A stretch of DNA of 64,000 nt from an uncultured Planctomycetia bacterium (GCA_964634935.1 CAZWJT010000005.1:71128-135127), one strand, 5' to 3'. Shown: positions 10,400 to 41,400, counted from the first letter of the stretch. Translations and numbers: made by a program. The notes: generated from the sequence alone by a model not told the origin.

Positions 10400-10600
10400 G
10401 CCCGGCTTGCATAAGCCCATGCGCGCAAAAGGACAAACAAAATCAAAACTCTGTTACGATTCTATTTTTCGGAAGGTTTCTTTAAAAAACTGCTGTAGCT
10501 CTAGAAATTGAACTCCCCCTCGTGGAAACGCTTGGATATTTCTTCGAAATCTCCTGCGCACATTTCGGGATGATTTTTTAGCCTTTGGCTAAAAAATCTA

Positions 10601-10688
10601 CGGAGAGGCAGGGATTTGAACCCTGGGACCGCTTTTGGCGGTCACACGCTCTCCAGGCGTGCCGATTAAACCACTCTCGCACCTCTCC
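10601..10688 (-). tRNA. tRNA-Ser (anticodon GGA), 88 nt, type II long variable arm, no encoded CCA
   Basis: Manual fold of the reverse complement gives acceptor GGAGAGG/CCTCTCC, anticodon stem CACGC/GCGTG with loop CTGGAGA, a long variable arm and a T-arm CAGGG-TTCAAAT-CCCTG. Confidence 0.8.
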
Positions 10689-10741
10689 GAAAAACCACGG
10701 CAAGCGGTTCAAGAAGCGTTTGTTTCTGAAAAAGGTGGGCG

Positions 10742-10939
10742 TTACTTTAAATTCTTGCGTACTTCCTGTTCAGCCTGAAACCAAAAACTCCAATCATTGC
10801 CGAACGGCTTCCCGGCTTTCTCCCAGAGTTCAAAAGCCTTATTTTGAACCAAAGCGAATATTTCATTCTCACTGATCTTCTTTGATGTAGTGCTTTTTTG
10901 CGGCTTAGACACCACTTTGGACTTTGCTTTTTGGATCAT
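10742..10939 (-). CDS. DUF2934-family small protein
   Basis: The 65-aa protein carries 'EIFALVQNKAFELWEKAGKPFGNDWSFWFQAEQE', matching the DUF2934 consensus (I...AYELWE..G.P.G.D.EDW..AE). It overlaps the start of the first GH57 gene by 4 nt. Confidence 0.55.
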   Translation of the reverse strand: MIQKAKSKVVSKPQKSTTSKKISENEIFALVQNKAFELWEKAGKPFGNDWSFWFQAEQEVRKNLK

Positions 10940-12990
10940 GACACTCCTCCTTTTTTCTCAAGCGAAAGACTAAAATGAAAACTTTTATCACCCAGGTCTT
11001 TTATAAAATAAACGGCGATCTGCTGATAATTCTTCTCGTATCCGGATTCAGAAGAAGAAACTGAATATAGAGGATAAACTAAAATGGAGAAATTTTCAAG
11101 AGAAAATTTAAGAATAATCTTTCTCCACTCATCAACCAGCATAAATTTGGTAACCCGTTCAAAAATATTTTCAGTCTTTAGTGAAAAATTCTGCCCTCCG
11201 GCGTTATAGAAAGCGCTTTCGATTGAGGGAATAAACAGATTGAATTCAATCGCTATTTTCTTATCCTGAAATTCTTTCTGGGCAGCAACCTGATAAGAAA
11301 AATCAATTCTCGGTTCAGCGGAAAAAACCTTAATATCTTTCTTCAATGAAAGAAAAGAGCATGCATTGGCGCAGGTAACTTTTAAGGCAGATTGCGAATG
11401 AACCCAGGAAATATCGTAGAATGTGTTGGCGAAAGAATGAAAATACCTTCCTTCCTGAAATGCCCGCATATCTATCCGTTCAACGATATGATCAAGACAA
11501 GCGGTTTTTTCATACCAGTCATAGATAAGCAGTTTCTCCAATCCATCCTCTTTTGCCCGGGGAGCATCGTGGATCGTAGCAGGCGTACCCTGGGAAGCTT
11601 GTCCGGATTTTTCGAAAAGATGACTATGATAATTTTCTCTGCGCCGGGTCACCGTATTGAGCAAATTAATCGAAAACTCGGGAGCGCTCAGCTCCGTGAT
11701 ACTCCCTGAAAGAGAAGAACACACAAGGTGCAGGGCACGAGTACGCACCATGAGCTCTTCTGCTCCATCAAGGTTGACATCCTTCTTTTCAACAAAAAAA
11801 TCCTGTTTTCCCTTCCGATGAAGCAATGCTTCTGCCTGAATCAAATTCTGATAGACTGCATCGCGTAAATGTCCAAGATAGAAACCCCCGAATACTCCAT
11901 GCCAATACGCGCAGTTGCATTGGGCTTTCCAGAGGTATTCGAAAATAGATTTATCTTTTTTTGCGTCAGCTTCAGAACCAATCTTATCGCTTAAATACAT
12001 CATTTTTTTGTGCATATCGTTAATCCGGGGATATTTATGGAAAAAATTCTTGAAAAAACCTCCCCGCACAAACGGTTCCGCCTGAGGAAATTCCTGTTTT
12101 ACCTTCTGGGATAAATTCCGGTAAATCAAATATTGATCATATTCAAGAACCCATTCCATCATCTCACTATAAGATCCTGTTGGCAGATAAACAATGCCCG
12201 AAGAAGCAAACTGTTCAAGCGCTTCCGCAAAAGTAATCGTTTCAATCCAGCTCTGGTTAGCCTCGAGAAATGCAAAGAAATCATTCAGCCACTTTTTGGT
12301 ATAAACCCAATCGTAAGTATGCGGCCACATACCGAACTTTTCACCATCATCCACCAGGGTAACCAGAACATCACTATCCTGCCGCAGGAATTTTTTCAAT
12401 AGGCCCGCTAATTCTGGTATGGTTGAGAATGGAACTTTGTACCGCAGTGTCTTACAAATTGGAAATACAGAAACCGCGCGACCGCTCTCTTCGGTGGTGT
12501 AGTATCCGAGTATTTCATCGTCAAGAAAACCGCATTGACGGAAATGAGCGTCGTCGACGAGCGTAAACCGCAGGTCGCTCTCGGATAAAACCAATGGTAC
12601 ATCAGGTTGCCAAATCCGCTCCGTAAGCCAAGCCCCCTGGGGCTTTTGTTTAAATTGCTTCGCAATAAACAAATTCATCTTATGAATCTGTGCCAGCTGG
12701 TCTGAGCGAGGAATCACCGAAAGAATAGGCTCATAGTAACCGCTGCTCAAAAACTCAATCTGCTTCTTTGCTCCAAGGTTTTTTAGAATTCCCAACAAAT
12801 CTTCTTTTTTCTGCTCAAGAAGCCAATCAAAAAGACAACCACTGAAATGCACATTGCATTTAACGGAAAAGTTGCGTAAAACCCGGAAAAATGGAAGATA
12901 ACACGTCTGGTAAGCCTGCTCAATGACTGAATCGAAATTTCCTACAGGCTGGTGGTTGTGGACTCCGAAAAGCAGATATACCTTACCCAT
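10936..12990 (-). CDS. Glycoside hydrolase family 57 protein (large form; alpha-glucanotransferase/amylopullulanase-like)
   Basis: N-terminal 'LLFGVHNHQPVGNF' is the GH57 signature (HxHQP). The 684-aa protein overlaps the next GH57 gene by 8 nt. Confidence 0.75.
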   Translation of the reverse strand: MGKVYLLFGVHNHQPVGNFDSVIEQAYQTCYLPFFRVLRNFSVKCNVHFSGCLFDWLLEQKKEDLLGILKNLGAKKQIEFLSSGYYEPILSVIPRSDQLAQIHKMNLFIAKQFKQKPQGAWLTERIWQPDVPLVLSESDLRFTLVDDAHFRQCGFLDDEILGYYTTEESGRAVSVFPICKTLRYKVPFSTIPELAGLLKKFLRQDSDVLVTLVDDGEKFGMWPHTYDWVYTKKWLNDFFAFLEANQSWIETITFAEALEQFASSGIVYLPTGSYSEMMEWVLEYDQYLIYRNLSQKVKQEFPQAEPFVRGGFFKNFFHKYPRINDMHKKMMYLSDKIGSEADAKKDKSIFEYLWKAQCNCAYWHGVFGGFYLGHLRDAVYQNLIQAEALLHRKGKQDFFVEKKDVNLDGAEELMVRTRALHLVCSSLSGSITELSAPEFSINLLNTVTRRRENYHSHLFEKSGQASQGTPATIHDAPRAKEDGLEKLLIYDWYEKTACLDHIVERIDMRAFQEGRYFHSFANTFYDISWVHSQSALKVTCANACSFLSLKKDIKVFSAEPRIDFSYQVAAQKEFQDKKIAIEFNLFIPSIESAFYNAGGQNFSLKTENIFERVTKFMLVDEWRKIILKFSLENFSILVYPLYSVSSSESGYEKNYQQIAVYFIKDLGDKSFHFSLSLEKKGGVS

Positions 12991-14557
12991 GAGGCAGGGA
13001 TGGTAAGCGAACTCCCAGAAGTTTGCTTATTTCTTTGACATAAGAGAAGAATATTTGGGCGAAATCTTTCTTTGAATCTTCAAAAGTATTCCACCAGTTC
13101 CAATCGCTACCCTCGATAATATGCAAATAGTCCTCAATCTTCTTGCGCTTACGTTCGTCAAGCTTTACCTCGCTCAGTTTACGCCGCAATCTGGCGAGAA
13201 TCTCCCAGTTGGTATTATTCTTTTCCGAACCAACCCAAACCCCAAAGTCGCCGTTAATCCATGATCCGGGTGATAAACGCTCAAGACGCTTTGGTTTCTG
13301 CTGCGCGGTATAGCCGGAGATCGTGTTTGACAGAAGCTCAGGATGTTTTTCAATTTCAGCATACAGCGTACTTAAGAACTGCCGTCCGTTGTCTGGATAA
13401 TACTCCCAGGCATTCTCCCCATCCATGGCGATAACTACCCCGGGTTGAGGGTAAATCTTCCCGACATATTCATGGATACGCCGGAAATGACCGACAATAT
13501 CGAAAGCTGCAGCAGAAAGATTCTGCCAGCTATGGTAGCTGAAACCAATTGTATCCGAAAGATTCTTATCACGAAACACGAAGTTCATCGAGTCAAAAGA
13601 ATACGGCTGATAGATGATGTGCCTTTGGCGTTTTAAAAGATCCACGGGAATTTTTGATCCCGCAAGACTCTTAAACAATATGTCCTCATCCGTTGCCAGC
13701 CACCGGAAATTCTTCCCTTGGTAGATAGAAACAACCGCCTCACTGACGCTGCCTTCCGAAGGCCAGGAACCACACGGTGAAGTATGGAAAACTTTTTCTG
13801 CAAGGTTTTTGGCATTTTCTACATGCCACAATGCGTCCTCAGGGAAGGCAAACCTCAGCGAAGGAGCAGTAAGATAAGAAAACTGCTTGGTAATATCCGT
13901 ATCGCAAAGCAAGGGCATAATCGGATGATAATACGGGGTGATACTGATTTCGATTCTTCCTTCCGCGCACAGTTTCTGATAAAGAGGAAAAATCTTCTCC
14001 ATAACATCGTAGTGCTTCTGAAACACGTATTTCTTCTCACTCAGAGAAAAATTCTTCCCTTTAGCAAATATGTGCTGGAGATTCTTATCCTCCTCAATCG
14101 TGAGACTGTGAAACCATACCAGATTAAAATAAACCTGAAGATCAAAAATATCTTGCCTGGAAAACTTGGTGAATTGTTTGCTGAGAAATTTTTGGTAGAG
14201 CTCAAGGTAGCGAGGATACGGTTCAATCATGGTTTTTCGGTTAACTCCGAAAAACCTTTCGAGGATAAATTTTCGTTCAAGGCTTGTGAGAGAAGCCGGG
14301 TCTTTCTGGGAAAGCTTTAAATAGTAATCGGATGCTTTGTTGACGGTGTAATCACGAATCTGCTCAAGCAGAATGCCGGAAAAATTGAAGTTCCCCTTGA
14401 TCGCATGAAAACGTGAAAGCAACAGAGCAAATGGATAGTAATCTTTCACGGCATGCAAGCGTGTCCATGGCAAATAGTAATCCTTGCTATTCACCTTGCG
14501 ATAACAAGGCTGATGCATATGCCAGAGAAAAACTAAATGAGTGCGGCGCGTGTGCAT
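12983..14557 (-). CDS. Glycoside hydrolase family 57 protein (alpha-amylase-like paralog)
   Basis: 'LVFLWHMHQPCYR' GH57 N-terminal signature in a 524-aa protein. Confidence 0.75.
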   Translation of the reverse strand: MHTRRTHLVFLWHMHQPCYRKVNSKDYYLPWTRLHAVKDYYPFALLLSRFHAIKGNFNFSGILLEQIRDYTVNKASDYYLKLSQKDPASLTSLERKFILERFFGVNRKTMIEPYPRYLELYQKFLSKQFTKFSRQDIFDLQVYFNLVWFHSLTIEEDKNLQHIFAKGKNFSLSEKKYVFQKHYDVMEKIFPLYQKLCAEGRIEISITPYYHPIMPLLCDTDITKQFSYLTAPSLRFAFPEDALWHVENAKNLAEKVFHTSPCGSWPSEGSVSEAVVSIYQGKNFRWLATDEDILFKSLAGSKIPVDLLKRQRHIIYQPYSFDSMNFVFRDKNLSDTIGFSYHSWQNLSAAAFDIVGHFRRIHEYVGKIYPQPGVVIAMDGENAWEYYPDNGRQFLSTLYAEIEKHPELLSNTISGYTAQQKPKRLERLSPGSWINGDFGVWVGSEKNNTNWEILARLRRKLSEVKLDERKRKKIEDYLHIIEGSDWNWWNTFEDSKKDFAQIFFSYVKEISKLLGVRLPSLPHG

Positions 14558-16143
14558 TATTTTTTCGCAAACACCGAGAAATCTATTTCGGAGAATATGT
14601 TATTCCTACTTTCCATATTCGCCAAAATATCCTGCCTCGGATTATCATGCCGGTAGAGCCGGGTAAGCGTATGGAAGTTTCGTAAGTGCTCAAGGGTTCT
14701 TTTCTTGGCGTACTCAGTGAATGTGCCTGTTTTCATAATAAAAGCCCAGTCGCTCGATTGCGCCAAGAGAAGTTCTCTGGCCATCTGATTGAGAATGCGC
14801 CGTTTGACCGCTGGAGCCCCGTTCGCCTGCGTAGCAAGATTTGTCATTGTTTCACAGGCACGATGCAAATGAGGATAAACCCAATCATTGGAACCATTTA
14901 ACCAAACCTCGCTGTATCCTTTCCAGCCCCAGCTTGACGCTGCAGGACGAATCACCTGATTTTTCGGATAGAGTTTCAGATATCCCATTGGAGTAATTAA
15001 TTTTATATCCGACTGGTCGTAGTGCATTTTCTTAATTAAAAAATAGAGAAAATCAACTCCTTCAAACCACCAGTGTCCATATAATTCGGCATCGTAAGGA
15101 GAAAGAATGATCGGTTCACGGCCAAGACGCGACTGTAAGTATTCAACCTGCCGTTGGCGGTTAAACATAAAGTTCCCGGCATGATCAGCCGCCTTCGAAA
15201 GAGCAACATTGTAATCGTATGGTTCCTTTATCGGAGATTCACCGGTAATTTTGTGATATTTGATCCCTGTGAAGATCCTCACTCCATCAGCAGCGACATA
15301 AGGACGAATATAGTTAAAATCCAGATCAAATCCAATGTCACGATAATATTCGCGATAATTATAGTCGCCTGGATATCCTTCAATCGAACTCCAAACGCTC
15401 TTGGAGCTTTCGTGGTCGCGCCCGAACACGGCAACCCGGTTAGGGGTGTAATATCCGGAGTAAACCCCGAATTTTGGACGGGGACGCGCGAAGAGTACTC
15501 CGTGGGTTTCAAGAATAAAAAATTTGATTCCCTCTTCTTTCAAAAATTTATCGACCCCTTCAAAATAACCGCATTCAGGAAGCCAGATTCCGTTTGGATT
15601 CCGCCCAAAATATTTACGGTATGAATTTACTCCAACGCGTATCTGCGCCCGCACTGCCTCATCCTGAATACTCAGAAGAGGCAAATATCCATGGGTTGCT
15701 CCGCAGGTAATAATTTCAAGATGCCCGCTCTCCTGAAGACTTTTGAATTGCCCCAGAATATCCCGCGACCACTTGTGAAATACCAAATCCTTGCTGTGCG
15801 CAAAGCGATGATAATACATCTGCGCCAACTTATAGAATTCCGGAGACCAACGGTTCCTTTCAATTTCCTTCTCGGACAGCTCGATCATCTTGTCGAGGTA
15901 GGCACCATAACGGCTCACCAAGAGTTCGTCGGCAAGCATATTGCAGAGCGAAGGAGAAACATTGATCGTTACCGCGAAACTCACTCCTTCGCTTCGCAGA
16001 GAAAAGAATTTATCGAGTAAAGGGATATAGGTTTCAGTAAGAGCTTCGAAAAACCAGCGCTCTTCAAGAAACTCCTCGTATTCGGGATGCCGGACAAAAG
16101 GCAGATGCGCGTGCAAAACAATTGAAAGATATCCTTTTGGCAT
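14557..16143 (-). CDS. GH57-type 1,4-alpha-glucan branching enzyme (GH57 catalytic domain plus DUF1957-like C-terminus)
   Basis: 'YLSIVLHAHLPFVRHPE' is typical of GH57 branching enzymes. At 528 aa it matches Thermus/Thermococcus-type GH57 GBEs in size. Confidence 0.7.
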   Translation of the reverse strand: MPKGYLSIVLHAHLPFVRHPEYEEFLEERWFFEALTETYIPLLDKFFSLRSEGVSFAVTINVSPSLCNMLADELLVSRYGAYLDKMIELSEKEIERNRWSPEFYKLAQMYYHRFAHSKDLVFHKWSRDILGQFKSLQESGHLEIITCGATHGYLPLLSIQDEAVRAQIRVGVNSYRKYFGRNPNGIWLPECGYFEGVDKFLKEEGIKFFILETHGVLFARPRPKFGVYSGYYTPNRVAVFGRDHESSKSVWSSIEGYPGDYNYREYYRDIGFDLDFNYIRPYVAADGVRIFTGIKYHKITGESPIKEPYDYNVALSKAADHAGNFMFNRQRQVEYLQSRLGREPIILSPYDAELYGHWWFEGVDFLYFLIKKMHYDQSDIKLITPMGYLKLYPKNQVIRPAASSWGWKGYSEVWLNGSNDWVYPHLHRACETMTNLATQANGAPAVKRRILNQMARELLLAQSSDWAFIMKTGTFTEYAKKRTLEHLRNFHTLTRLYRHDNPRQDILANMESRNNIFSEIDFSVFAKK

Positions 16144-16144
16144 A

Positions 16145-17275
16145 TTATTTCTCGGTTCTTTCTACGACTGGAGTAATCGTAATCGTGTCGATTTTGTCAG
16201 AAGAAGTTGCGGATATCGGAAATTCAAATTTTCCCTTTGGAAGATACTGGCGAAAACTGAAAGTTCCGTCATGGCGGAGCGGGGTTTGCTTGCCATGAAC
16301 AGTCAGAGTAGCATCTGGCTTAGTTCTGCCATAGACGATAAGTTCCGTATGCACCTCTAAGAAAAACTCTCTTTCCTTGGCTTTCTTCGAAGGCACAAAC
16401 GATGACATTCCGGAAGCGCCGAACGAAGAAATCTGCCGTTTAAATACTTCTTCAAACTTTCTCCGGCGTTCAAGAGAACTGCGACCTAAATCATAGAGAC
16501 CAAGTATCCGGAAATACTCCTCGTCGGGTAAAACCCACTCTTCATCAATAAGATCAGAAATTCCAAAATAAGGGGTCGAGACGATATTCGAACGACAAAT
16601 CATATAGAATTTTCCGCTGGCGGTTAGAAAACCGATATCAACACAAAAACTATTTTCGGGGTTTTCCACGTTGATATACCAATTTTGCGCAACATCGCCG
16701 ACTACAATATCAAAATAACTCTTGGCATTCAACCCATCGAAATGAGCAACGCCGGTCACATTGTATACGCGCAACGCCTTCCGGATATCGGTTCGTTCGT
16801 GTTGAGGAATGCTCTCGAAAACTTCGCGTTCGTGTTCGGCGGAAATATCCCAATAGGTATGAAGCCACCAAGGATCTCGTACTAAAAGCACAATACGGTT
16901 ATCCTGGTAGCGATACGGCAGATCCACGGAAACTTCTTTTTGTTCCTGAGCGCTCGTTTCGTATTTTGCGCTCTCAGCGTGCATCTTATTATTGAGCATG
17001 CCCGGGATTGTCTCTTCACGGATTAAATTTTCCCGCAAAGCAGAAGACGCTGGTTTGCCTTTGGCTATAACTTTTTTTCCTTGAGAGATAGAACGAACCT
17101 TCTGAACAAAAGAAGTTATCTTTTTCTTGGTTGCTTTCTTGTTGTCGGCTGGTTTGTTTGCAGAAGCTCGAGCAGTTTTTTCTATGATTTTTCCAAGTAG
17201 CGAAGTTGATTTCTTTTTTGAGGAAGCACTTGCTTTTTTTGAAGAAAATCCAAATACTCCGCCTTTTTTCATCAT
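16145..17275 (-). CDS. DUF4912-domain protein with a K/S/A-rich low-complexity N-terminus (GH57-associated partner)
   Basis: 'LLVRDPWWLHTYWDI' motif. The N-terminal ~110 aa are Lys/Ser/Ala-rich and likely disordered. The gene is immediately upstream of, and co-directional with, the GH57 genes. Confidence 0.55.
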   Translation of the reverse strand: MMKKGGVFGFSSKKASASSKKKSTSLLGKIIEKTARASANKPADNKKATKKKITSFVQKVRSISQGKKVIAKGKPASSALRENLIREETIPGMLNNKMHAESAKYETSAQEQKEVSVDLPYRYQDNRIVLLVRDPWWLHTYWDISAEHEREVFESIPQHERTDIRKALRVYNVTGVAHFDGLNAKSYFDIVVGDVAQNWYINVENPENSFCVDIGFLTASGKFYMICRSNIVSTPYFGISDLIDEEWVLPDEEYFRILGLYDLGRSSLERRRKFEEVFKRQISSFGASGMSSFVPSKKAKEREFFLEVHTELIVYGRTKPDATLTVHGKQTPLRHDGTFSFRQYLPKGKFEFPISATSSDKIDTITITPVVERTEK

Positions 17276-17407
17276 TCTCCCCCCGCCTTATTTTGTAGGT
17301 TATTTGAAAGATATAGTGATAGTATCATTCCTCATTTTAAAAGTCAAGAAATTTGTGCCCTGGAATACCTTCCTTTATAGATAGGTTATATATAATTTTA
17401 TATAATA

Positions 17408-19848: not shown

Positions 19849-21750
19849 CTATCTTTTCTGGAAACACGCTTGCATCTTCTTACGAAGAAGTGCCTGTGCG
19901 GAAGAATCTCGGCTTAAGCGGAAAAATCTATGGGTGTATTCCAGAAACAACTTGCAATCACCCTGACTCTCAGCAATAAGCCCAAGAGCCAGATAGACAA
20001 GCGGCGAGAGCGCCTCGCCCTGATAAAATGACTTCTCCAACAATTCTTTTGCGCGTCGGTAATCACGCTGGTTAAAAAAATAAAGCCCTCCAAGCATGTT
20101 GGCCCGGCGGGAATGCGCGGAAAACTGCAATAACCGATTAAGCTCAGAAACCGCCTGGGGATAAGCCTCAAGCTGAGACAAAATTGCCGCATCGTTCAAA
20201 AATGGCTTCAAAATCCGGTAGGCATACTGAACACGGGATGGAAAACGATCGACCCTGGCAAAAATAACATGGTAATCATCCCAATAGAGCACCATAAACC
20301 GAGGATCTTCATCGAGAAATTTCCAAATGGAATATAAGCCATTTCGTGGATAAGTAAGAATAAAATAATCGATCGCATGCTTTGCAATGATTCTTTCAAG
20401 ATCTTCTTTGCTGCGCCCAGCAGTTACATAATCCTCGACGAAAAATTTTGGAGGATAACAGTCGATGACTCTTCCATCGATAAATACCTTTCGTTCAGGA
20501 TAAGCATTCCAAATCAAATAGCTTCCGAGATCAAGCTGGTTGAACATGTTCCCTTGGATATCAGCCTGCCTGAGAAACGAGACTACCCCCTTGATATCCC
20601 GCGAGGGGTGAATTCCAAAACCAAACTTTCTCTGCAGAAAACCGGTCTGATAGCCAAAGAATGCGACCCAAATCGAACCAAAAAGTCCAAGAAACGTTAT
20701 GATGAGAAATATTTTTTTGTCCTGTAGAAAACGAAAGGAAAATCTTCCTCTGCTTTCCGGAGAAGAATACTGTGCGTACGCCGCATAAAATACCACTAAA
20801 ATCCCATAACAAGCCGACGGAATGAAACGTACCGCGCGCAGAGAAAGCACAGAAAATAAAACCAGAAGAAACCAGGAATGGAGGCGTATTCTGCGGAAGT
20901 TGGCGAAAAACCATACGACTACGCAGAAAAGAAGAAAGAAATACAGGATAACATAAGGCATACTTAAATACATACGCTGGAAAGGAGACATCCACTCATA
21001 GATAAACTGTCTTTGGTTATAAAAGTTATCGAAGAAAAAACGCAATGGCTCAAGATAAACAAAAACCCCGGAAGGATTCATACAGGCGGCAAGACAGGTT
21101 GCGAAAAAACAAAGATAGTAAGAACGAGGGATTTCTTTTCGTGCAAACAATCTGCTTACAAAAAAGAATAAAAAAATCCCAGCCCCAAGAATAGCGGAAT
21201 AATTCATATTGGCCCACAGAATCTGCACCAGAGGTAAACCATACAGGAAGCGCGTCGGTCGCACTTCAGCAATAAAAAGCGTGCAGAGAAAAAAAGTCAT
21301 AAAGAAATCAGCAAAAATATGGGGACGCTCTATGAAGCGTTCGGCGCAGATAAATGCCCCGAAAAACAAAAGCAAATAGGAAAAAAAGTTATAAAAACGC
21401 AGTAGTATAAGAAATCGCGCGATTATAAGAAAAATTCCAAGCACCACGAGAAACTTGAACAGAATCAGACCAGTTATACCAGCCCATTGGTAAATAAGAT
21501 AAAAAACGACTTGCCCAAGCCATTCAACATTAATCCATACCGAAGCAGGACGCGTAAATGAAAAGGGGTCGCTCGTCAAAATCTTTCCTTCTCGGAAAAT
21601 GAACTCTCCAGTCTTCAGGTGTGTCCCAATATCGTCACTTTGGACGGGAAATATCGAGAGAACAAAAATAAAAAGAGCAAGAACACATATAGAAAAAACT
21701 GTTAAACCGTAAAAAGAACGGTCGCGATCACAAGATTGAACAATATTCAT
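19849..21750 (-). CDS. Polytopic membrane protein with C-terminal TPR repeats; GT-C-like (PMT_2/ArnT-type) glycosyltransferase candidate
   Basis: At least 10 predicted TM helices, with a 'QSDDIGTH' acidic motif in the first extracytoplasmic loop as in GT-C enzymes. The C-terminal ~150 aa are TPR-like ('AKELLEKSFYQGEALSPLVYLALGLIAESQGD'). Confidence 0.4.
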   Translation of the reverse strand: MNIVQSCDRDRSFYGLTVFSICVLALFIFVLSIFPVQSDDIGTHLKTGEFIFREGKILTSDPFSFTRPASVWINVEWLGQVVFYLIYQWAGITGLILFKFLVVLGIFLIIARFLILLRFYNFFSYLLLFFGAFICAERFIERPHIFADFFMTFFLCTLFIAEVRPTRFLYGLPLVQILWANMNYSAILGAGIFLFFFVSRLFARKEIPRSYYLCFFATCLAACMNPSGVFVYLEPLRFFFDNFYNQRQFIYEWMSPFQRMYLSMPYVILYFFLLFCVVVWFFANFRRIRLHSWFLLVLFSVLSLRAVRFIPSACYGILVVFYAAYAQYSSPESRGRFSFRFLQDKKIFLIITFLGLFGSIWVAFFGYQTGFLQRKFGFGIHPSRDIKGVVSFLRQADIQGNMFNQLDLGSYLIWNAYPERKVFIDGRVIDCYPPKFFVEDYVTAGRSKEDLERIIAKHAIDYFILTYPRNGLYSIWKFLDEDPRFMVLYWDDYHVIFARVDRFPSRVQYAYRILKPFLNDAAILSQLEAYPQAVSELNRLLQFSAHSRRANMLGGLYFFNQRDYRRAKELLEKSFYQGEALSPLVYLALGLIAESQGDCKLFLEYTHRFFRLSRDSSAQALLRKKMQACFQKR

Positions 21751-35483: not shown

Positions 35484-38400
35484 CTATTCAACAACATTCT
35501 GTCTGATGCGCTCCGGTTCCAAAAAATGAGAAAGTGAAGCGATTGGCTGAATCTGAACAATGAGAAAAGTGAATCCTTGAATATGCTCAAAGTGTTCACC
35601 AAGCTTATTCCCTAAAATGCTATTTTTCTGATTGAGCGATAACGATCTAAAATCAATACCGCCGGTATCGGAAGTTTGCCCTCTGCGTTCCTGGGAAATA
35701 ATCTTGCCTGAACTTAAGTTTTGGATAAAAGTATCGTATGCTTCTCGCACTACCCGACCATCATTCATCCGGTAAATAATCCACTTCATCGCGTTACGAC
35801 CATCTACCTCGGCGGAAACAATTGCGGCATAGTTAAAATTTTCGATTGCTTTTGCCATAGCATCGGCTGATTGTGCCGAAGTATACGTATCAGCGTATCC
35901 ATAAACCCTTTCTGAGTCGTCATGCCAAGGATGCGTAACAGCGGTCACACCCAAAGCAAATGTGATATCTGGTGGCCGCGAGGTCTGGTCGTGATTGATC
36001 TCAGCAGCCATAATCCGAACGTTCATCCCTCCCGGGGAAAGCGCAGTTTCCAGCTCAGAAAGATTGAAGTCTCGGGGCACAAAGAATACAATCTCATCTC
36101 CACCGTCTTGATTGATGATAACCGCTGACCCGCGAAGTCCAACTTCGCTTATGAAGTTTTCCTCGGGTATTGTCTGCCGTAGAATACCGATGAGCGTTTC
36201 CACCTTCTCTCGCATAGTACTTTTCACGAAATCATCTGCCTGAACCATCTCGTGAATAGCGACTTGCTCTTTATCCTGGACATCCTGGTCAATGACGGCA
36301 AGATAATTCTGATGGGCTTGAATGAGATTACCTTGAATCATCGCCCAAAAGCCTTTTACGTCAGCCGCCACTACTCTGCCTCCGTTCTGAGAAAGACGAT
36401 ATGCTTCACGATGAAATTGCTCAGATGAGGTGATGGTTCTGTTCTTTGGATTTGTTTCAATGAGAATAACTGCTTCTTGGAAAAGCGTAATATATTCACC
36501 AAATGTATCCGGAGGAGCCCTAGTCCGCAAAGCCTCCAAACCCTCGAGCACCCGTAGAATCCTCTGACTCTCCTGTTCAATATTGGCGCCAAGCCAGTTC
36601 TTAGGGTAGTCGAAAAGATCAAGAATATCCAAGTACTGCTTAAGCTGAAGCTGTGTACCTGCAAGGTGCGCATGAGCTTGCCCTCTTACCGCCTTCATCT
36701 TCTCTTCAGAAGGAGCCTCTTGAGGCCGCAAGCCCAAAGATTCACGCAGAGATTCAGCCTGCATAACGAATTGATCGAAAGTGTCCAGAGAAAAAATAGC
36801 TCCACGGATTTTATTGCCCAAATCACTGCTTATTTTAGCAATCTTTGCTGCCTGAAGTGCCTGAATATCAGCTAGAATGCGCGCCTGATTTGTAGGTTTT
36901 TTCACTGCCAAACTTACCCCATAGTTCGCCCTGAATTGAAAAGTACTGAGCGCTTCATAGTTCGAATATTCATCGTGAACAAAACGGTTCATTTCATGAG
37001 CAAGGTCCTGAATAACCCGCTCAAGTGCTTGGAGCAACAGTTCTGGATTACCCATAAACCTGCTCTCAAATACGGATTTTTTAATCACAAACTTGTCTTG
37101 CTTATAGTCAGAAGAAATTCTTTGCTCTTCGGAGCTGATAATCCCTGATTTCCGCAAGAGCTCAAGGAGAGTCATTTGGCGGTGTAATATAACCGCATCG
37201 TTTTCGGGCATACTGAGAATCTTATTGAGTAATTTTATGTCCTGCTGATTAAAAACCAATACGGAATCACCTTCTTGAACCTGCCGAATCAAAGCAACTA
37301 CCGGGTTTTGGGAAATTATCCTCTGGCTCATCTCCCCGAGCGTCTGAATATCCCCCTTGGTAAGTGGCCTGCGCATCATTAATGCTGAGAGGACATGGGT
37401 TACCCGAATCCCAAACTCATTGAATTTGTGGATACCAACAACAATACGATCAACAGCGCTTCTGCGTTGGGTATCTTTTCGTTGCTCATGCTCCACTCGC
37501 CTTTCTCCTGGCTTGACAGTGCTGCGTGGCTGTCGATGCCGCGCAAGAGTCTCAAATATGCTTTCAATATAGGTCTGGTAAATCCGGGCCAACTCTCTTC
37601 CTCTGTCGAATCTATCGAGCGGTAATTCGACCGTTCCGCGTACAATATCATCAAACACTCTGTGTGTTGCTTTTTGTTTACTCTGGGAAAACAACCAGTC
37701 AAAATAGGAATTGTCGTCTTCGTCCTCATGGAAAACCACAGCAGCCAAGTTTGCTTCTAGATCAGAAACATCGACTGTGGAAATGACCTCAGAGAACAAA
37801 GCAACATCTGCGCGCGCCTGAGCAGACATTGACAATCCCTCGACGATACGGTGCAGAACATAGAGCATAAACAAGTATTCGGGGGTTTGACGAACTTTCC
37901 CCTGGATAAGCTCAGTGAGATAGTGAAAATCTTCTCCAAAAAGTTGTTCCAACTGCCGAGGGTCAGCCGCTCTTAAAAAACTATCGATCGCTCCTTGCGC
38001 TTTCCCGGGCCACCGTTGAAGCATTTCTGCAACAAGTCGTTGCTCGGCAAGGTAAGTGCTTGAAACTTGACTTACAAGCCACTGAATTTCATCATCGATG
38101 CCGGCAAGAATCATTAATCCAGAGCTGGTTATATCTTTTCTTTCAAGGAGCATTTCCCGAATAGCTGGATTTGATCGGCACAGCTGTTCTGTGATCTGAC
38201 CAGCTTGGCGCTCAACAGTCGCCTCCTCAAAAATACTAAATAAGCCGACCAGCTGTCTATTCTTACTGCTATTGTCATATCGGCCTTGGCTGAACTGTTT
38301 ATGGAGCGCCTCGTGAATTAATGTTTTAGTGATTACCAGCGGATCTTCCAAATCGCTTGAAATAAGCACGATATAAGAAAAACCTCCCCGTCCATTGGGA

Positions 38401-41400
38401 ATACTGAGAATCATACCCTGCGCGGAAAAACCAAGAAGATCAGCCGCCCAAGAATCGCGAGAAACAAAAACTACTTGCTCTACGTCAAGCATATCTTCCG
38501 AATAACTGCGCAATACCTGATTAATAGCGTCAATTAAAAAAGCCTGTTTTTCCGATGCCATACGTACCGCCTGTGAATCAACGCCATGCAGAGCAGCAAG
38601 AAAACTGCGCACTCCACCATCCATATCCATTCTCTCTTGCACGCTGCTTACGATCATTTTTCTTTCGTCCAACAATTGTCGATGCCGATCCAGAGTATCC
38701 TGTAATGTCTTAATCACCCTCGGGTCTCCGTTATGCTTTTGTTCCCGGTTTAAATCTTTCTTGGTTCTTTCGATTGCAGAGGATAATCGGGAAAGATACC
38801 GGGCCAATATCCCATGGACATATTCTTTCTCGTGAGAAGAAACAGGATAAGAACCAAGCCTCTCTCCCCCGAGATCCTCCCGATCAACTCCTATACCCTG
38901 GCCCCACCCCAATCCTAAGGCTAACCCGACAAGCAAAGCCTGCCGGTTTGTAAAACCAAATTCTCTCTGCAAAACAGATAATTCTTCCTGAGGATCTTTT
39001 ATGCCAAAATTTTGAGGATGATCTCTCAGGCGCATTAAAGCAAGACGCATCCCGGCTGTAGACGGATCTTCACCAACCCGGCTCAGTATGTGCGCGGCAA
39101 TCGCACCCCAGTCGGTTAAGCCCGACTGCACCAAGGATAACTTTGTTGCGTTGAAATCCGACATAAGTTCCTGGATGAATCCCAATTCCCCGGAAATAAG
39201 CTTGCCTTGTACTTTTTGTTCTTTTGCGATAAGCAGGATGCTATCTTCTAAGGCCTGACGAGCTATTCCCATAGGCGATTGCTTTGTGATGTGCAAAAGC
39301 CTTCTTACTTGTGCCGGCGAAAGAATGATGCGCGCCTTCGGTAACGACCGGGTAAACATCAAGGAAACCTCTCGGTATACAGAAGGGCGCACGGAAGATT
39401 CTAAAATATCAAAAACATGGTCTACAAATCGTGGATGGCTACGAAAAATCCTGGGGAGCACTTTCGGCAGATGTATCGGTGACTGAGCCATCGCATGCAC
39501 AATAATCTTAGCTTCTCTTTTCCCGATGGGCACACTGTACATGACAAATATTTCTTCCAGTTTCTCGGCAATGACCGAACGAACAAAATCCGCAAATTGC
39601 CCTTTATGCCCGCTTATCTCTTTCAATTTATTTACAAGATACAAAAATTCTTTTTCCGGAGGATTATCAGAACGAATAACATCTTTCCGCTCCTGAATTG
39701 CTTGAGCCAAAGAAAGCAGCTTCATGTTTTGTGTCTCGCTCCGGATATATTGTGTCAAGAACCTATCGCTTTCACCAAAAACATACCGCTGAACTGCCCG
39801 CAAAAGATAATGGGGATTATTCTTGTCGCGTAAAGCGATTCTTAAAGATTCTCCATTGATTTTAATCCGAGCGATTTCCCTACCGCGGGCACTCATCACT
39901 ATTTCCCCGCTCACTGCATCGTTTTTATGAAAAATCCTCCCCATCCCCAGGGCGTTCAGAAAGGCAGGGAATGCTCCTCGAAAATGCAACGTAAGCAGAT
40001 TCGCTGCCACCAAATACTCAAAAAGCTCATGAAGATACGCGATAGTCTTTATATCCTGGGTTGCGGATCCGGTGGGAGCTAGGTTACCAAAGATTGCGAT
40101 AAAATTATTCTCGATTGAAACAAACCCGAATAAATCATCTACAAGAGAATCGAAGGTATACAGAGAAGGTCTCCGTTCCTCAGGAAGGTCGCGAAAAATA
40201 TTGAGAAGCGAAGTCAGTAAATCCTGCTTTTCTTTACTGAATCCGAAAAACTCAATATTCTGGATAATCCGCTCAAGATCAATCTTTCCTTTTTTACCCA
40301 ACGGGAGAACCTGCTCCTTGCCTGATTGGGTAATAAGCGTGATATTTTCTCCGGTAAAAATTTTAAACGCCTTCACGCGTTTCCCCATCTGCGGCAGCTT
40401 ATCCTCTGTTTGTTCATCAGCTCGACCAGAAGTAATCGGGGCGACATTAACCCGGACTACCGAAGCCTTACCGGGAATATTTGGCGGAACAGACGACGGA
40501 CGTAACATCTGTGGCATTTTGGTAAAATCAGCACCCCCGGAGTAATACCGACGCTTCACTGTCCGCCCAGTATGGTTGTCGTATTCGGATTTAATGTAGT
40601 TATAGATTCCCTTCTTGAATGCCTCGAGATACAGCTGATATATTTTTTCTTTTGCCGCGGTGTCTACAATATCGATCCCGGAAATCTTCTCTTTGTTGAT
40701 ATACCCGGTATAGACACTTTCTTTAAGTTTATTTTTGAACCAGACTGCCAGAATAAGCGAAGAATAAATTTGCCGGAGCCTGGCAAAATTCCTTCCAGAA
40801 TTGATCTCCTGTTCTATCTGAGGAAGAAGAATCTCGCGAACCATCCGGGATGAAATCCTATTCACCTGACTGATGGTTTGATCATTGAGAGAACTTTCGT
40901 GCTTAATGTAGCTTCGATTATTCTGCAAAGCTCGGTAATCTTCTTCCAGCATTGCCTTCAGCGAGGATTCACCGATGAGCGCCGTTGTCCCTTCCTCATA
41001 CACAGAAACTGAACCTGGAATAATCCAAATCTTGTTGAAGGTATTCACTGGGATATTTTCTGCTTGAATAACCCGGTAAATCTCTTGATATGTTTTTTTC
41101 CAGAAAGCTCGTCCTAATTCGGCCTCAGGATACGTAAGAGACGCTAAAAGTTGTTTTAACACATAGTCTTGCGAAAGTAGGTCTCTGCCTAAATCCGTTC
41201 CGCTGAGAGCGTGCGGCGCCACGCGATCTTGTTCGTATGGAGAAAGATTGACCCAAAGGTTCTCTTCGGGAATCGTAAGTCCGGCAAGAAAATACTTAAT
41301 CAACAGTTCAGCTTCTTCACGCAACATACCGCTCGAGGCGTCAGCAAGGTCATGCGAAGAAAGGATAAATTCAAGTTCGAACGGCTTGTCTGGATTGATC

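What the first reader, a model, noticed from the sequence alone, without database searches (positions are those of the whole stretch)
10742..17275. Tandem triplet of divergent GH57 genes with DUF4912 and DUF2934 partners and no GT or phosphorylase nearby
Three consecutive paralogous GH57 proteins are translationally coupled with 8-nt and 1-nt overlaps. One is a large 684-aa form, one is HMHQP amylase-like, and one is an LHAHLPF branching-enzyme type. Upstream is a DUF4912 protein with a ~110-aa Lys/Ser/Ala-rich disordered N-terminus, and downstream a 65-aa DUF2934 protein. DUF4912 is recurrently a neighbour of GH57 branching enzymes. The biochemical role of DUF4912 is, to my knowledge, unknown. 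Three GH57 paralogues together suggest a complete GH57-only alpha-glucan remodelling set (branching, disproportionation, debranching or amylase) without glgA, glgC or glgP in the cluster. The basic disordered tail on the DUF4912 protein could bind polyanions or the glucan.
Basis: partly seen in the sequence, partly recalled or inferred. Interest (0 to 1): 0.55.

Follow-up and report, generated by a model that had tools for sequence, protein, structure and literature searches.

The report
Overlooked partner gene of GH57 branching enzymes
A five-gene glycogen-processing operon begins with an uncharacterised protein (DUF4912) whose gene sits directly before the GH57 branching-enzyme gene in every bacterial lineage sampled, including enzymes already studied alone in the test tube, so it is probably a missing partner of that enzyme.

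Summary
On the minus strand, 10742-17275 holds five tightly coupled genes with junctions of +1, -1, -8 and -4 nt. They encode a DUF4912 protein, a GH57 branching enzyme (GBE), a GH57 amylopullulanase, a GH57 4-alpha-glucanotransferase and a 65-aa DUF2934 protein.

The three GH57 proteins belong to three old subfamilies and are not recent duplicates. The 64-kb window has no glgA, glgC or glgP.

The main result concerns the first two genes. DUF4912 followed by a GBE is a fixed two-gene module in 86 of 87 loci found from the DUF4912 side; the one exception is cut by a contig end. It also holds in 5 of 5 loci found from the enzyme side: a Thermotoga contig whose enzyme is 99% identical to AmyC, Kosmotoga pacifica, Petrotoga olearia, Halobacteroides halobius and one Thermotoga-like contig.

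All 75 measurable partner GBEs are the "loop-less" class. That class is 92% of the family, has weak activity in vitro, and its in vivo role is unsettled.

DUF4912 is an FN3-like beta-sandwich. Its N-terminus is either polybasic and disordered or a Rho_N helix-extension-helix.

I infer a non-catalytic adaptor or activator of the GBE, possibly tethering glycogen to the nucleoid as PhaM does for PHB granules. No experiment supports this yet.

The parts
17319..17347 (-). Promoter-like site (TTGACT, 17-nt spacer, TACTAT with an upstream TG) in the 132-nt recR-DUF4912 spacer. It is followed by a strong Shine-Dalgarno-like GGCGGGGGGAG before the ATG at 17275.
   Evidence: Consensus scan and sequence. 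This is a pattern match only. The region as a whole has no more promoter-like matches than shuffled sequence.
16931..17275 (-). DUF4912 protein residues 1-115: polybasic Lys/Ser/Ala-rich disordered tail, with no signal peptide.
   Evidence: 27 K/R against 9 D/E, net +18. pLDDT is below 45. In 346 homologues with a tail of at least 30 aa, 91% are net positive and the median is +14.5, while the folded remainder has a median of -3.
16541..16924 (-). DUF4912 domain (residues 118-245): a seven-stranded FN3-like beta-sandwich with one helix. It carries the family's conserved aromatic motifs RDPWWLHTYWD and NWYINV.
   Evidence: PF16258, 116.9 bits against a cut-off of 29.4. The domain model has pLDDT 88 and pTM 0.80. 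The top 50 Foldseek PDB hits are almost all FN3 or FN3-type receptor domains and none is a CBM.
16148..16540 (-). DUF4912 protein residues 246-376: a low-confidence helical linker (246-299) and a C-terminal Ig-like beta-sandwich (300-376) resembling glucodextranase domain B.
   Evidence: pLDDT is 84-96 for residues 300-376. Homologues give sub-threshold PF09136 hits. This domain is absent from the short Thermotogota and Halanaerobiales forms.
14557..16143 (-). GH57 alpha-glucan branching enzyme of the AmyC (loop-less) class. Nucleophile Glu is in WLPECGY (15565-15585) and acid/base Asp is in PYDAELYGHW (15070-15099). The BE_C domain is at 14569-14871. A class-specific conserved insertion lies at about 15250-15342.
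   Evidence: Pfam. Aligns over essentially its whole length with only short gaps to T. maritima AmyC 2B5D, E 6e-152. [quoted passage not shown] Conservation of the insertion is.
12983..14557 (-). GH57 amylopullulanase-type enzyme (AaApu-like). Nucleophile Glu is in WPSEGS (13748-13765), acid/base Asp is in AMDGENAWEY (13400-13429), and CSR-5 ends in WW (13091-13114).
   Evidence: Best PDB sequence hits are the Aquifex aeolicus AaApu entries (8ZYI/9IHT and variants), E about 4e-89, with the equivalents of E256 and D352 conserved. The WW signature is described in PMC6037648.
10936..12990 (-). GH57 4-alpha-glucanotransferase (T. litoralis type). Nucleophile Glu is in WLTERI (12613-12630) and Asp is in VDDGEKFGMW (12325-12354), with the diagnostic Lys. 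The middle and C-terminal domains are at 11821-12060 and 11008-11781.
   Evidence: PF03065, PF09094 and PF09095. 1K1W, E 4e-118. The Lys-23 signature is described in PMC6037648.
10742..10939 (-). DUF2934 small protein: a basic Ser/Lys-rich N-terminal tail plus the conserved helical motif NKAFELWEKAGKPFGNDWSFWFQAEQE. It is the last gene of the operon.
   Evidence: PF11154, 34.8 bits against a cut-off of 22. Across 1.34 Mb of window and related loci, all 38 DUF2934 ORFs are the terminal gene of the GH57 operon. 37 of 39 complete extended operons end with it.

Best explanation
The region is a self-contained, probably co-transcribed and translationally coupled operon for cytoplasmic alpha-glucan (glycogen) processing. 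It sits in a genome that is most likely Candidatus Omnitrophota.

Three enzymes from three different GH57 subfamilies supply three activities:
- an AmyC-type loop-less branching enzyme (branching);
- an AaApu-type amylopullulanase (endo-hydrolysis and debranching);
- a T. litoralis-type 4-alpha-glucanotransferase (chain disproportionation).

Glucan synthesis (GlgC, GlgA) is encoded elsewhere in the genome.

The first gene product, the DUF4912 protein, is a dedicated non-catalytic partner of the branching enzyme. I infer the following mechanism. Its FN3-like domain, and in long forms a second Ig-like domain, docks onto the branching enzyme and/or the nascent glucan. Its N-terminal polybasic tail, replaced or preceded in other lineages by a Rho_N helix-extension-helix module, binds a polyanion, most plausibly the nucleoid. 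The protein would thus position, and possibly activate, an enzyme that is feeble on its own. This would resemble PhaM, which activates PHB synthase and ties PHB granules to DNA.

The terminal DUF2934 protein accompanies the degradative GH57 enzymes and is probably a small basic adaptor or modulator.

What is shown: the gene content, the subfamily assignments, intact catalytic residues, the near-universal DUF4912-GBE adjacency, the loop-less class of every measurable partner enzyme, the fold, and the conserved positive charge.

What is inferred: physical binding to the enzyme, glucan binding, polyanion or nucleoid binding, and activation.
For: Anatomy, coupling and Pfam assignments.

Subfamily assignment and catalytic residues.

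DUF4912 followed by a GBE:
- 79 of 80 Omnitrophota genome loci; the exception ends at a contig end.
- 7 of 7 further loci with unrelated flanking genes. Named sources are Hydrogenedentota, FCPU426 and Poribacteria; two loci resemble proteins annotated Ozemobacteraceae and two are unassigned.
- Median spacer is about 9 nt.

The reverse test started from AmyC-type enzymes. It found DUF4912 immediately upstream in Kosmotoga pacifica, a Thermotoga-like contig, a contig whose enzyme is 99% identical to T. maritima AmyC, Petrotoga olearia and Halobacteroides halobius.

Glycogen context: H. halobius has GT5 synthase, DUF4912, GBE, GlgP. L062 has amylopullulanase, 4-alpha-glucanotransferase, a HIT/GalT-like gene, DUF4912, GBE, an NTP-transferase-PGM fusion and a GT5 synthase.

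All 75 measurable partner enzymes have AmyC-type spacings and so lack the loop and the beta5-beta6 strands. PMC9291813 reports this class as 92% of GH57 GBEs, with very low or no branching in vitro and an unknown in vivo role. The papers on AmyC, P. mobilis and K. pacifica never mention the upstream gene.

Fold.

The polycationic tail is conserved in charge but not in sequence. Rho_N appears as the alternative N-terminal module.

Histone-like or helix-hairpin-helix DNA tethers are the known solution for PHB and polyphosphate granules. The 2025 review of the field does not mention glycogen at all (PMC13052382).

A class-specific, highly conserved insertion in the partner enzymes could serve as a docking site.
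Against: - There is no direct evidence of a protein-protein complex. No DUF4912-GH57 fusion appears among the roughly 360 listed homologues.
- The fold search returns generic FN3 domains. It does not distinguish protein binding from glucan binding, and no carbohydrate-binding module is among the top hits.
- Exposure of the conserved aromatic residues could not be checked, because the tools return no coordinates.
- Basic disordered tails can have other roles, such as RNA binding or solubility.
- The short Thermotogota forms lack the second beta-sandwich, so part of the window protein is dispensable for the core function.
- Only the best-scoring part of a family of at least 7273 clusters was sampled. 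Cyanobacterial DUF4912 proteins were not examined.
- To my knowledge, which I did not test here, the loop-less GH57 of M. tuberculosis (Rv3031) sits in a different cluster without DUF4912. If so, the partnership is not universal for the class.
- Whether this genome encodes a glucan synthase was not testable.
Confidence: 0.6

Rival explanations
1. DUF4912 is a free-standing alpha-glucan-binding granule protein, acting as a carbohydrate-binding module in trans. It coats or organises glycogen but does not bind the branching enzyme. The genes are adjacent only because both products act on the same polymer.
For: It has a beta-sandwich fold, as all starch-binding modules do, and a cluster of invariant Trp and Tyr residues. 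GH57 GBEs have no CBM48 of their own (Pfam). It lies inside glycogen operons.
Against: The top 50 structural matches are almost all FN3 or FN3-type receptor domains, which typically mediate protein-protein contacts, and none is a CBM. The adjacency is specifically to the GBE, with a median gap of about 9 nt, even where no other glucan gene is nearby (32 pair-only loci). That pattern is more typical of subunits than of pathway neighbours.
Confidence: 0.2
2. The DUF4912-GBE pair does not work on storage glycogen. It makes or remodels another alpha-glucan or glucoside, as proposed for loop-less GH57 'GBEs' in general.
For: PMC9291813 argues that loop-less enzymes are not true glycogen branching enzymes and belong to pathways not yet identified. 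The pair often stands alone without any glycogen gene within 10 kb.
Against: In the window the pair is fused into one operon with an amylopullulanase and a 4-alpha-glucanotransferase. In H. halobius and L062 it sits between a GT5 glycogen synthase and GlgP or GlgC-like genes. T. maritima AmyC does introduce branches into amylose (PMC6616209; PMC9291813). Omnitrophota MAGs are inferred to synthesise glycogen (PMC8542988).
Confidence: 0.12
3. DUF4912 is a nucleic-acid-binding regulator that controls expression of the downstream GBE gene, acting through its Rho_N-like or histone-like N-terminus. It is not a partner of the enzyme.
For: It carries a Rho_N module or a polybasic tail at the N-terminus. 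It is always the gene upstream of the GBE. A metagenomic study called cyanobacterial members 'Rho-like' (PMC13613805).
Against: It has no Rho RNA-binding or ATPase domain (Pfam). The conserved core is the FN3-like domain, not the N-terminal module, which is swapped or nearly absent in some lineages. Tight translational coupling implies near-stoichiometric synthesis, which is unusual for a regulator.
Confidence: 0.06
4. The GH57 triplet is a recent local amplification, and the flanking DUF genes are there by chance.
For: None, beyond the shared Pfam family PF03065.
Against: The three GH57 proteins are barely alignable to each other and each matches a different characterised subfamily. The full five-gene order recurs in 20 other complete loci, and the four-gene version in 16.
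Confidence: 0.01

Closest known systems
Thermotoga maritima AmyC (PDB 2B5D), a loop-less GH57 glycogen branching enzyme
   Same: The window's GBE aligns with it over essentially its whole length with only short gaps (528 against 528 aa, E 6e-152). It has the same CSR signatures, the same two deletions (no beta5-beta6, no flexible loop) and the same conserved insertion. A DUF4912 gene lies 4 nt upstream of an enzyme 99% identical to AmyC.
   Different: AmyC has only ever been studied alone. The Thermotoga partner is a short form (Rho_N-like plus DUF4912 domain). It lacks the polybasic tail and the second beta-sandwich of the window protein.
Aquifex aeolicus GH57 amylopullulanase AaApu (PDB 8ZYI, 9IHT)
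   Same: The 524-aa middle gene matches it at E about 4e-89 across the whole catalytic module. The equivalents of E256 and D352 and the WW end of CSR-5 are conserved.
   Different: AaApu is a hyperthermophile enzyme studied for starch saccharification. Here the homologue lacks a signal peptide and is embedded in an intracellular glycogen operon. Its activity is untested.
Thermococcus litoralis 4-alpha-glucanotransferase (PDB 1K1W)
   Same: It has the same three-domain architecture (PF03065, PF09094, PF09095), E 4e-118, and the Lys-23 signature.
   Different: The window protein is bacterial and operon-linked to a GBE and an amylopullulanase. Its last roughly 95 residues fall outside the PDB alignment.
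Classical glgBXCAP-type glycogen operons
   Same: Both co-locate branching, debranching and chain-processing functions for one storage polymer. Relatives (H. halobius, L062) add a GT5 synthase, a GlgC-like gene and GlgP to the same cluster.
   Different: All three glucan-active enzymes here are GH57 rather than GH13 or GH77. There is no synthase, pyrophosphorylase or phosphorylase within 64 kb. Two conserved non-catalytic proteins are present.
PhaM, PhaF and PhaH (PHB granules) and AlgP (polyphosphate granules)
   Same: These have a two-part design: one end binds the granule or its synthase and the other binds DNA non-specifically through a histone-like Lys-rich tail or a helix-hairpin-helix. 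PhaM also activates its enzyme (PMC13052382; PMC3556143). DUF4912 proteins show the same alternative between a polybasic tail and a helix-extension-helix on a constant folded core.
   Different: There is no sequence or fold relationship. DNA binding, enzyme binding and activation are all untested for DUF4912. The resemblance is of design only.
Plant PTST proteins (Protein Targeting To Starch); from my own knowledge, not tested here
   Same: They are non-catalytic adaptors that bring a glucan-active enzyme to its polymer.
   Different: PTSTs use a coiled coil plus CBM48. DUF4912 has an FN3-like fold and no detectable CBM.

Membership tests
GH57 (all three enzymes) | Five conserved sequence regions, with the catalytic Glu in CSR-3 and Asp in CSR-4 | tested here: met
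   PF03065 at E 4e-39 to 3e-52. CSR strings were located in each protein. GBE: HAHLP, GHLEII, WLPECGY, PYDAELYGHW, AQSSDWAFI. Amylopullulanase: HMHQP, GRIEIS, WPSEGS, AMDGENAWEY, EGSDWNWW. Glucanotransferase: HNHQP, KQIEFL, WLTERI, VDDGEKFGMW, AQCNCAYWH.
GH57 alpha-glucan branching enzyme | Sequence fingerprints: Cys after the nucleophile, Leu at logo position 23, Phe followed by a non-aromatic residue at positions 35-36, and a C-terminal BE_C domain | tested here: met
   ECGY, DAELYG and DWAFI are present. PF09210, E 2e-35. Criteria come from PMC6037648 and PMC6616209.
'True' (highly active) GH57 GBE as defined in PMC9291813 | A flexible loop of 17-22 aa over the cleft, plus the beta5-beta6 strands | tested here: not met
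   Spacings are 11 and 39 aa, as in AmyC. [quoted passage not shown]
GH57 GBE | Branching (alpha-1,6 transfer) activity | not testable with these tools
   Requires an enzyme assay.
GH57 amylopullulanase (AaApu type) | Full-length similarity to a characterised amylopullulanase, the catalytic dyad, and WW at the end of CSR-5 | tested here: met
   E about 4e-89 over residues 5-505, with equivalents of E256 and D352 and with DWNWW. Dual alpha-1,4 and alpha-1,6 hydrolysis was not tested.
GH57 4-alpha-glucanotransferase | Lys at logo position 23, and the middle and C-terminal beta-sandwich domains | tested here: met
   DDGEKFG is present. PF09094 at E 2e-33 and PF09095 at E 1e-44. 1K1W at E 4e-118.
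DUF4912 (PF16258) | Pfam model score above the gathering cut-off | tested here: met
   116.9 bits against 29.4. There is no NCBIfam model and no sequence relative in the PDB.
DUF2934 (PF11154) | Pfam model score above the gathering cut-off | tested here: met
   34.8 bits against 22. All 37 operon-terminal homologues match.
Rho_N (PF07498) helix-extension-helix | Pfam match at the N-terminus | tested here: not met
   The window protein gives no hit. Many homologues do, some above and some below the cut-off.
Starch- or glycogen-binding CBM | Sequence or fold match to a CBM family, plus a surface aromatic platform | tested here: inconclusive
Nucleoid-tethering granule proteins (PhaM- or AlgP-like design) | Non-specific DNA binding, plus binding to the granule or its enzyme | not testable with these tools
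   Only the composition is known: net +18 in the window protein, and a median of +14.5 in 346 homologues.

The most novel reading that the evidence does not exclude
DUF4912 proteins are the missing subunit of the loop-less GH57 branching enzymes, which make up 92% of the family. They bind the enzyme, perhaps at its class-specific conserved insertion, and switch on or redirect its branching activity. Through their histone-like tail or helix-extension-helix module they also anchor nascent glycogen particles to the nucleoid. This would be the first dedicated organising or activating protein for bacterial glycogen, the counterpart of PhaM for PHB.
Probability: 0.2. Interest if true: 0.8.

Novelty: new variant of a known kind. 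Interest (0 to 1): 0.62.

Why it matters
GH57 branching enzymes are widespread. Yet the great majority (the loop-less class, including T. maritima AmyC, the Petrotoga and Kosmotoga enzymes, and the M. tuberculosis enzyme) show little or no branching activity in vitro. Their physiological role has been declared an open question (PMC9291813).

In every lineage sampled here, which did not include M. tuberculosis, these enzymes are encoded immediately after one conserved uncharacterised gene, usually translationally coupled to it. That gives the question a concrete handle: co-express the pair and measure activity.

If the protein is an activator or adaptor, published kinetic data on these enzymes describe an incomplete system. 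Industrial use of GH57 GBEs for starch modification could benefit.

If it also tethers glycogen to the nucleoid, it would add glycogen to the short list of bacterial storage inclusions with a known positioning factor.

If it does neither, the operon is still a clean example of an all-GH57 glycogen-processing cluster in an uncultured phylum, which is of modest interest.

Tried and rejected
- PDB sequence search with the DUF4912 protein found nothing. NCBIfam has no model for it, for the amylopullulanase-type enzyme, for DUF2934 or for the 633-aa neighbour.
- tblastn of the DUF4912 core against 72,556 plasmids gave no match.
I did not repeat it with a narrower query.
- Recurrent neighbours beyond the five genes: all-against-all clustering of 1168 ORFs from 83 loci found nothing present in more than 21 loci, and no glycogen gene.
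- tblastn with E. coli Glg proteins hit only L062, apart from one marginal GlgB match in L048 (E 8e-4).
- DUF2934 links to dikinases: Pfam DUF7067 matched 11 of 37 members, best E 3e-4 and below the cut-off, and a PEP synthase segment in the PDB matched at E 0.1. Both are too weak to use.
- A natural DUF4912-GH57 fusion was looked for in the domain columns of about 360 listed homologues. None was seen.
- Complex prediction was not attempted.
- Co-evolution analysis was judged underpowered with about 90 pairs and confounded by shared phylogeny.
- Recent duplication of the GH57 genes was rejected.

Full report
**1. What is there**

On the minus strand, five ORFs run head to tail from 17275 to 10742. 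Pfam assigns them as follows:
- DUF4912, 376 aa: PF16258, E 8e-34.
- GH57 with the branching-enzyme C-terminal domain BE_C, 528 aa.
- GH57 alone, 524 aa.
- GH57 with the middle and C-terminal domains of 4-alpha-glucanotransferases, 684 aa.
- DUF2934, 65 aa: E 1e-8.

The junctions read from the sequence are TAAtATG, TAATG, ATGGGTAA and ATGA. These correspond to a 1-nt spacer and overlaps of 1, 8 and 4 nt. The 132-nt gap to the upstream recR gene contains a sigma-70-like TTGACT-17-TACTAT site and a strong ribosome-binding site. This is only a pattern match. A tRNA-Ser gene follows the last ORF.

None of the five proteins has a signal peptide, so the system is cytoplasmic. Upstream lie recR and dnaX, a 633-aa ORF with no family hit, and a UPF0102 gene. 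These are not conserved next to the operon in relatives.

The closest homologues of the DUF4912 protein (up to 58% identity) are all from Candidatus Omnitrophota MAGs. The exact protein is on record from a single unnamed 184,768-bp contig.

**2. The three GH57 enzymes are three subfamilies**

Pairwise BLASTP among them gives at best E 2.5e-5 over 95 residues. Each has a different closest characterised relative.

*The 528-aa protein.* It matches T. maritima AmyC (2B5D) at E 6e-152, over essentially its whole length with only short gaps. [quoted passage not shown] It carries the branching-enzyme fingerprints ECGY, DAELYG and DWAFI.

*The 524-aa protein.* It matches the Aquifex aeolicus amylopullulanase AaApu at E about 4e-89. 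The equivalents of catalytic E256 and D352 and the WW end of CSR-5 are present.

*The 684-aa protein.* It matches the T. litoralis 4-alpha-glucanotransferase at E 4e-118 and has the diagnostic Lys in DDGEKFG.

**3. No synthase or phosphorylase nearby**

Pfam scans of every ORF of at least 150 aa in the 64-kb window found no GT5 or GT4 synthase, NTP-transferase, GT35, GH13 or GH77. tblastn with E. coli GlgA, GlgC, GlgP, GlgX and GlgB found nothing in the window.

This concerns gene placement, not pathway. Two loci show the same genes beside synthesis and phosphorolysis genes:
- Locus L062 runs amylopullulanase-like GH57, 4-alpha-glucanotransferase, a HIT/GalT-like gene, DUF4912, GBE, an NTP-transferase-phosphoglucomutase fusion, then a GT5 glycogen synthase.
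- Halobacteroides halobius has GT5 synthase, DUF4912, GBE, GlgP.

Omnitrophota MAGs in general are inferred to make glycogen (PMC8542988). Whether this particular genome encodes a synthase could not be checked.

**4. The conserved unit is DUF4912 followed by the branching enzyme**

*From the DUF4912 side.* A scan of one genome per species found 341 relatives, and the best 80 loci were kept. In 79 of them a GH57 GBE follows DUF4912 directly. The exception is cut 24 bases after the gene. Seven further loci show the same pair with entirely different flanking genes. Their homologues were chosen from other lineages: Hydrogenedentota, FCPU426, Poribacteria, two close to proteins annotated Ozemobacteraceae, and two unassigned.

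*Architectures over the 87 loci.*
- Pair only: 32.
- Pair plus amylopullulanase, glucanotransferase and DUF2934, as in the window: 20.
- Pair plus amylopullulanase and DUF2934: 16.
- The remainder are rare variants or truncated by contig ends.
- The median spacer between DUF4912 and the GBE is about 9 nt.

*From the enzyme side.* I rebuilt the AmyC sequence from the alignment and searched with it. I then looked up the genomic context of its relatives. A DUF4912 gene lies immediately upstream in all five cases:
- Kosmotoga pacifica, with an 8-nt overlap;
- a Thermotoga-like contig;
- a contig whose enzyme is 99% identical to AmyC and shares a 90% cluster with the T. maritima MSB8 protein;
- Petrotoga olearia;
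- H. halobius.

Clustering of all neighbouring ORFs found no other gene recurring in more than 21 of 83 loci.

**5. Every partner enzyme is of the loop-less class**

PMC9291813 divides GH57 GBEs by a flexible loop and the beta5-beta6 strands. It reports that 92% of 2497 sequences lack both. These enzymes have very low or no branching activity on amylose, and the paper states that their in vivo substrate "remains to be established".

I measured the two diagnostic spacings. Of 78 GBEs encoded next to DUF4912, 75 gave AmyC-type values (11 and 39-40 aa). The loop-bearing enzymes give 26-28 and 49-51 aa. The other three escaped the pattern match but have the same length.

These enzymes also share an insertion that loop-bearing GBEs lack (window GBE residues about 268-298). 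It is as conserved as the catalytic regions: 0.81-0.85 against a mean of 0.71.

The papers that characterised AmyC, the P. mobilis GH57 enzyme and the K. pacifica enzyme do not mention the upstream gene. In the held literature DUF4912 occurs in two papers only, neither about glucans. A search for DUF1957, the old name of BE_C, found nothing linking the two families.

**6. What the DUF4912 protein looks like**

The AlphaFold model with a 41-sequence alignment shows four regions:
- residues 1-110: disordered;
- about 121-238: a confident all-beta domain;
- 246-299: a low-confidence helical linker;
- 300-376: a second confident beta-sandwich.

A domain-only model (pLDDT 88, pTM 0.80) has seven strands and one helix. 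Its top 50 PDB matches are almost all fibronectin type III or FN3-type receptor domains, with target-normalised TM up to 0.69, and none is a carbohydrate-binding module.

The C-terminal sandwich gives sub-threshold matches to glucodextranase domain B in homologues.

The family is large: 7273 clusters at 50% identity with E up to 1e-3.

Across phyla the constant part is the FN3-like domain, with invariant Y123, P135, Y141, W142, Y200, G215, S229, N230, P235 and W247. The ends vary:
- The short Thermotogota and Halanaerobiales forms (222-261 aa) lack the second sandwich. The three Thermotogota forms give sub-threshold Rho_N-like matches at the N-terminus; the H. halobius form gives none.
- Many long forms have Rho_N plus a long basic, Pro-rich linker.
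- The Omnitrophota forms have only a polybasic tail.

The charge of the tail is conserved although its sequence is not. In the 346 of 378 homologues with a tail of at least 30 aa, 91% are net positive and the median is +14.5. The rest of the protein has a median of -3. The window protein has +18 over 115 residues.

**7. DUF2934**

A profile built from the window protein finds 38 small ORFs in 1.34 Mb of window and loci. Every one is the last gene of the GH57 operon, after the glucanotransferase or after the amylopullulanase. Of 39 complete operons that extend beyond the GBE, 37 end with it. It never accompanies the bare pair.

All these proteins combine a basic Ser/Lys-rich tail with the motif RAYxxWExxGxPxGxDxxxWxxAE. 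I found nothing that identifies its function. Weak resemblances to dikinase segments are not significant.

**8. How it most likely works**

*Shown.* This is an operon of three intact GH57 enzymes of complementary specificity with two non-catalytic proteins. The first of these is genomically locked to the loop-less branching enzyme across distant phyla.

*Inferred.* The DUF4912 protein is a partner of the enzyme. Near-universal adjacency and tight coupling, even where no other glucan gene is near, favour a physical or strictly stoichiometric relationship over mere pathway membership. The FN3-like fold suits docking to a protein, though glucan binding by the conserved aromatic residues is not excluded.

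The interchangeable N-terminal modules are a histone-like polybasic tail or a helix-extension-helix. This mirrors the design of the proteins that tie PHB granules (PhaM and PhaF with histone-like domains, PhaH with a helix-hairpin-helix) and polyphosphate granules (AlgP) to the nucleoid. PhaM additionally activates its synthase (PMC13052382). That 2025 review does not mention glycogen at all.

I therefore propose an adaptor that positions, and possibly activates, the GBE at nascent glycogen, with the nucleoid as scaffold.

My confidence is about 0.85 that DUF4912 is functionally tied to the GBE in alpha-glucan metabolism. It is about 0.35 for direct binding or activation, and about 0.2 for the full tether-plus-activator model.

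**9. Rivals**

- A free glucan-coating protein, acting as a CBM in trans, is the main alternative (0.2).
- A role for the pair in a non-glycogen glucan, as suggested for loop-less enzymes, is weakened by the operon contexts in the window, L062 and H. halobius (0.12).
- A nucleic-acid-binding regulator of GBE expression fits the N-terminal modules. It does not fit the conserved FN3 core or the coupling (0.06).
- Recent duplication or chance is refuted.

**10. Limits**

- Only the best-scoring part of the DUF4912 family was sampled. Cyanobacterial members, described elsewhere as "Rho-like" (PMC13613805), and loop-bearing GBEs were not examined.
- The look-up quotas were exhausted.
- The organism's complete gene set is unknown.

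**11. Verdict**

The enzymes themselves are ordinary members of known subfamilies.

The noteworthy element is the conserved, unstudied DUF4912 partner of the loop-less GH57 branching enzymes. It turns an acknowledged open question about these enzymes into a simple experiment.

Novelty: a new variant of a known kind, namely a glycogen gene cluster with two conserved accessory proteins of unknown function. Interest: 0.62.

Noticed in passing
window 19849-21750 (-): A 633-aa ORF lies between the UPF0102/YraN-like gene and dnaX. It has no Pfam or NCBIfam match.
   Followed up: no
window 35484-41603 (-): A 2039-aa ORF has no Pfam family at E up to 1e-5. Large unannotated proteins have been reported in Omnitrophota; a bioRxiv paper on giant genes surfaced.
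   Followed up: no
window 15250-15342 (-), GBE residues about 268-298: This insertion is specific to AmyC-type loop-less GBEs and absent from loop-bearing GBEs. It is as conserved as the catalytic regions in 81 DUF4912-associated enzymes. It is a candidate docking surface for the partner.
   Followed up: partly
window 10742-10939 (-) and 36 homologues in loci L001-L072: 11 of the 37 operon-terminal DUF2934 proteins give sub-threshold Pfam hits to DUF7067 of plant alpha-glucan water dikinase (best E 3e-4). The family profile's best PDB hit is a PEP synthase segment (9DAE residues 687-711, E 0.1). Neither is significant.
   Followed up: partly
L062 6034-7068 and 9773-12256: In the one relative with a complete glycogen operon, a HIT/GalT-like gene (DUF4921/DUF4931 hits) sits just before DUF4912. 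The sugar-1-phosphate nucleotidyltransferase is fused to a phosphoglucomutase (827 aa).
   Followed up: no
L088 2489-4954 and 1-65: An additional 821-aa GH57 with DUF3536 and a GH13 alpha-amylase lie within 6 kb of the DUF4912-GBE pair in an ENA metagenome contig.
   Followed up: no
L043 9456-9926 and 20 other Omnitrophota loci: A protein of about 156 aa with a signal-peptide-like N-terminus and no Pfam match lies directly upstream of DUF4912, on the same strand, in 21 loci of one subclade.
   Followed up: partly
window 10600-10689 (-): ARAGORN calls a tRNA-Ser(GGA) immediately downstream of the operon. The Rfam scan at gathering threshold does not list it.
   Followed up: no
L029 17330-18544 and 9 other loci: A GH1 family glycosidase recurs 4-7 kb downstream of the five-gene operon in 10 Omnitrophota loci.
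   Followed up: no
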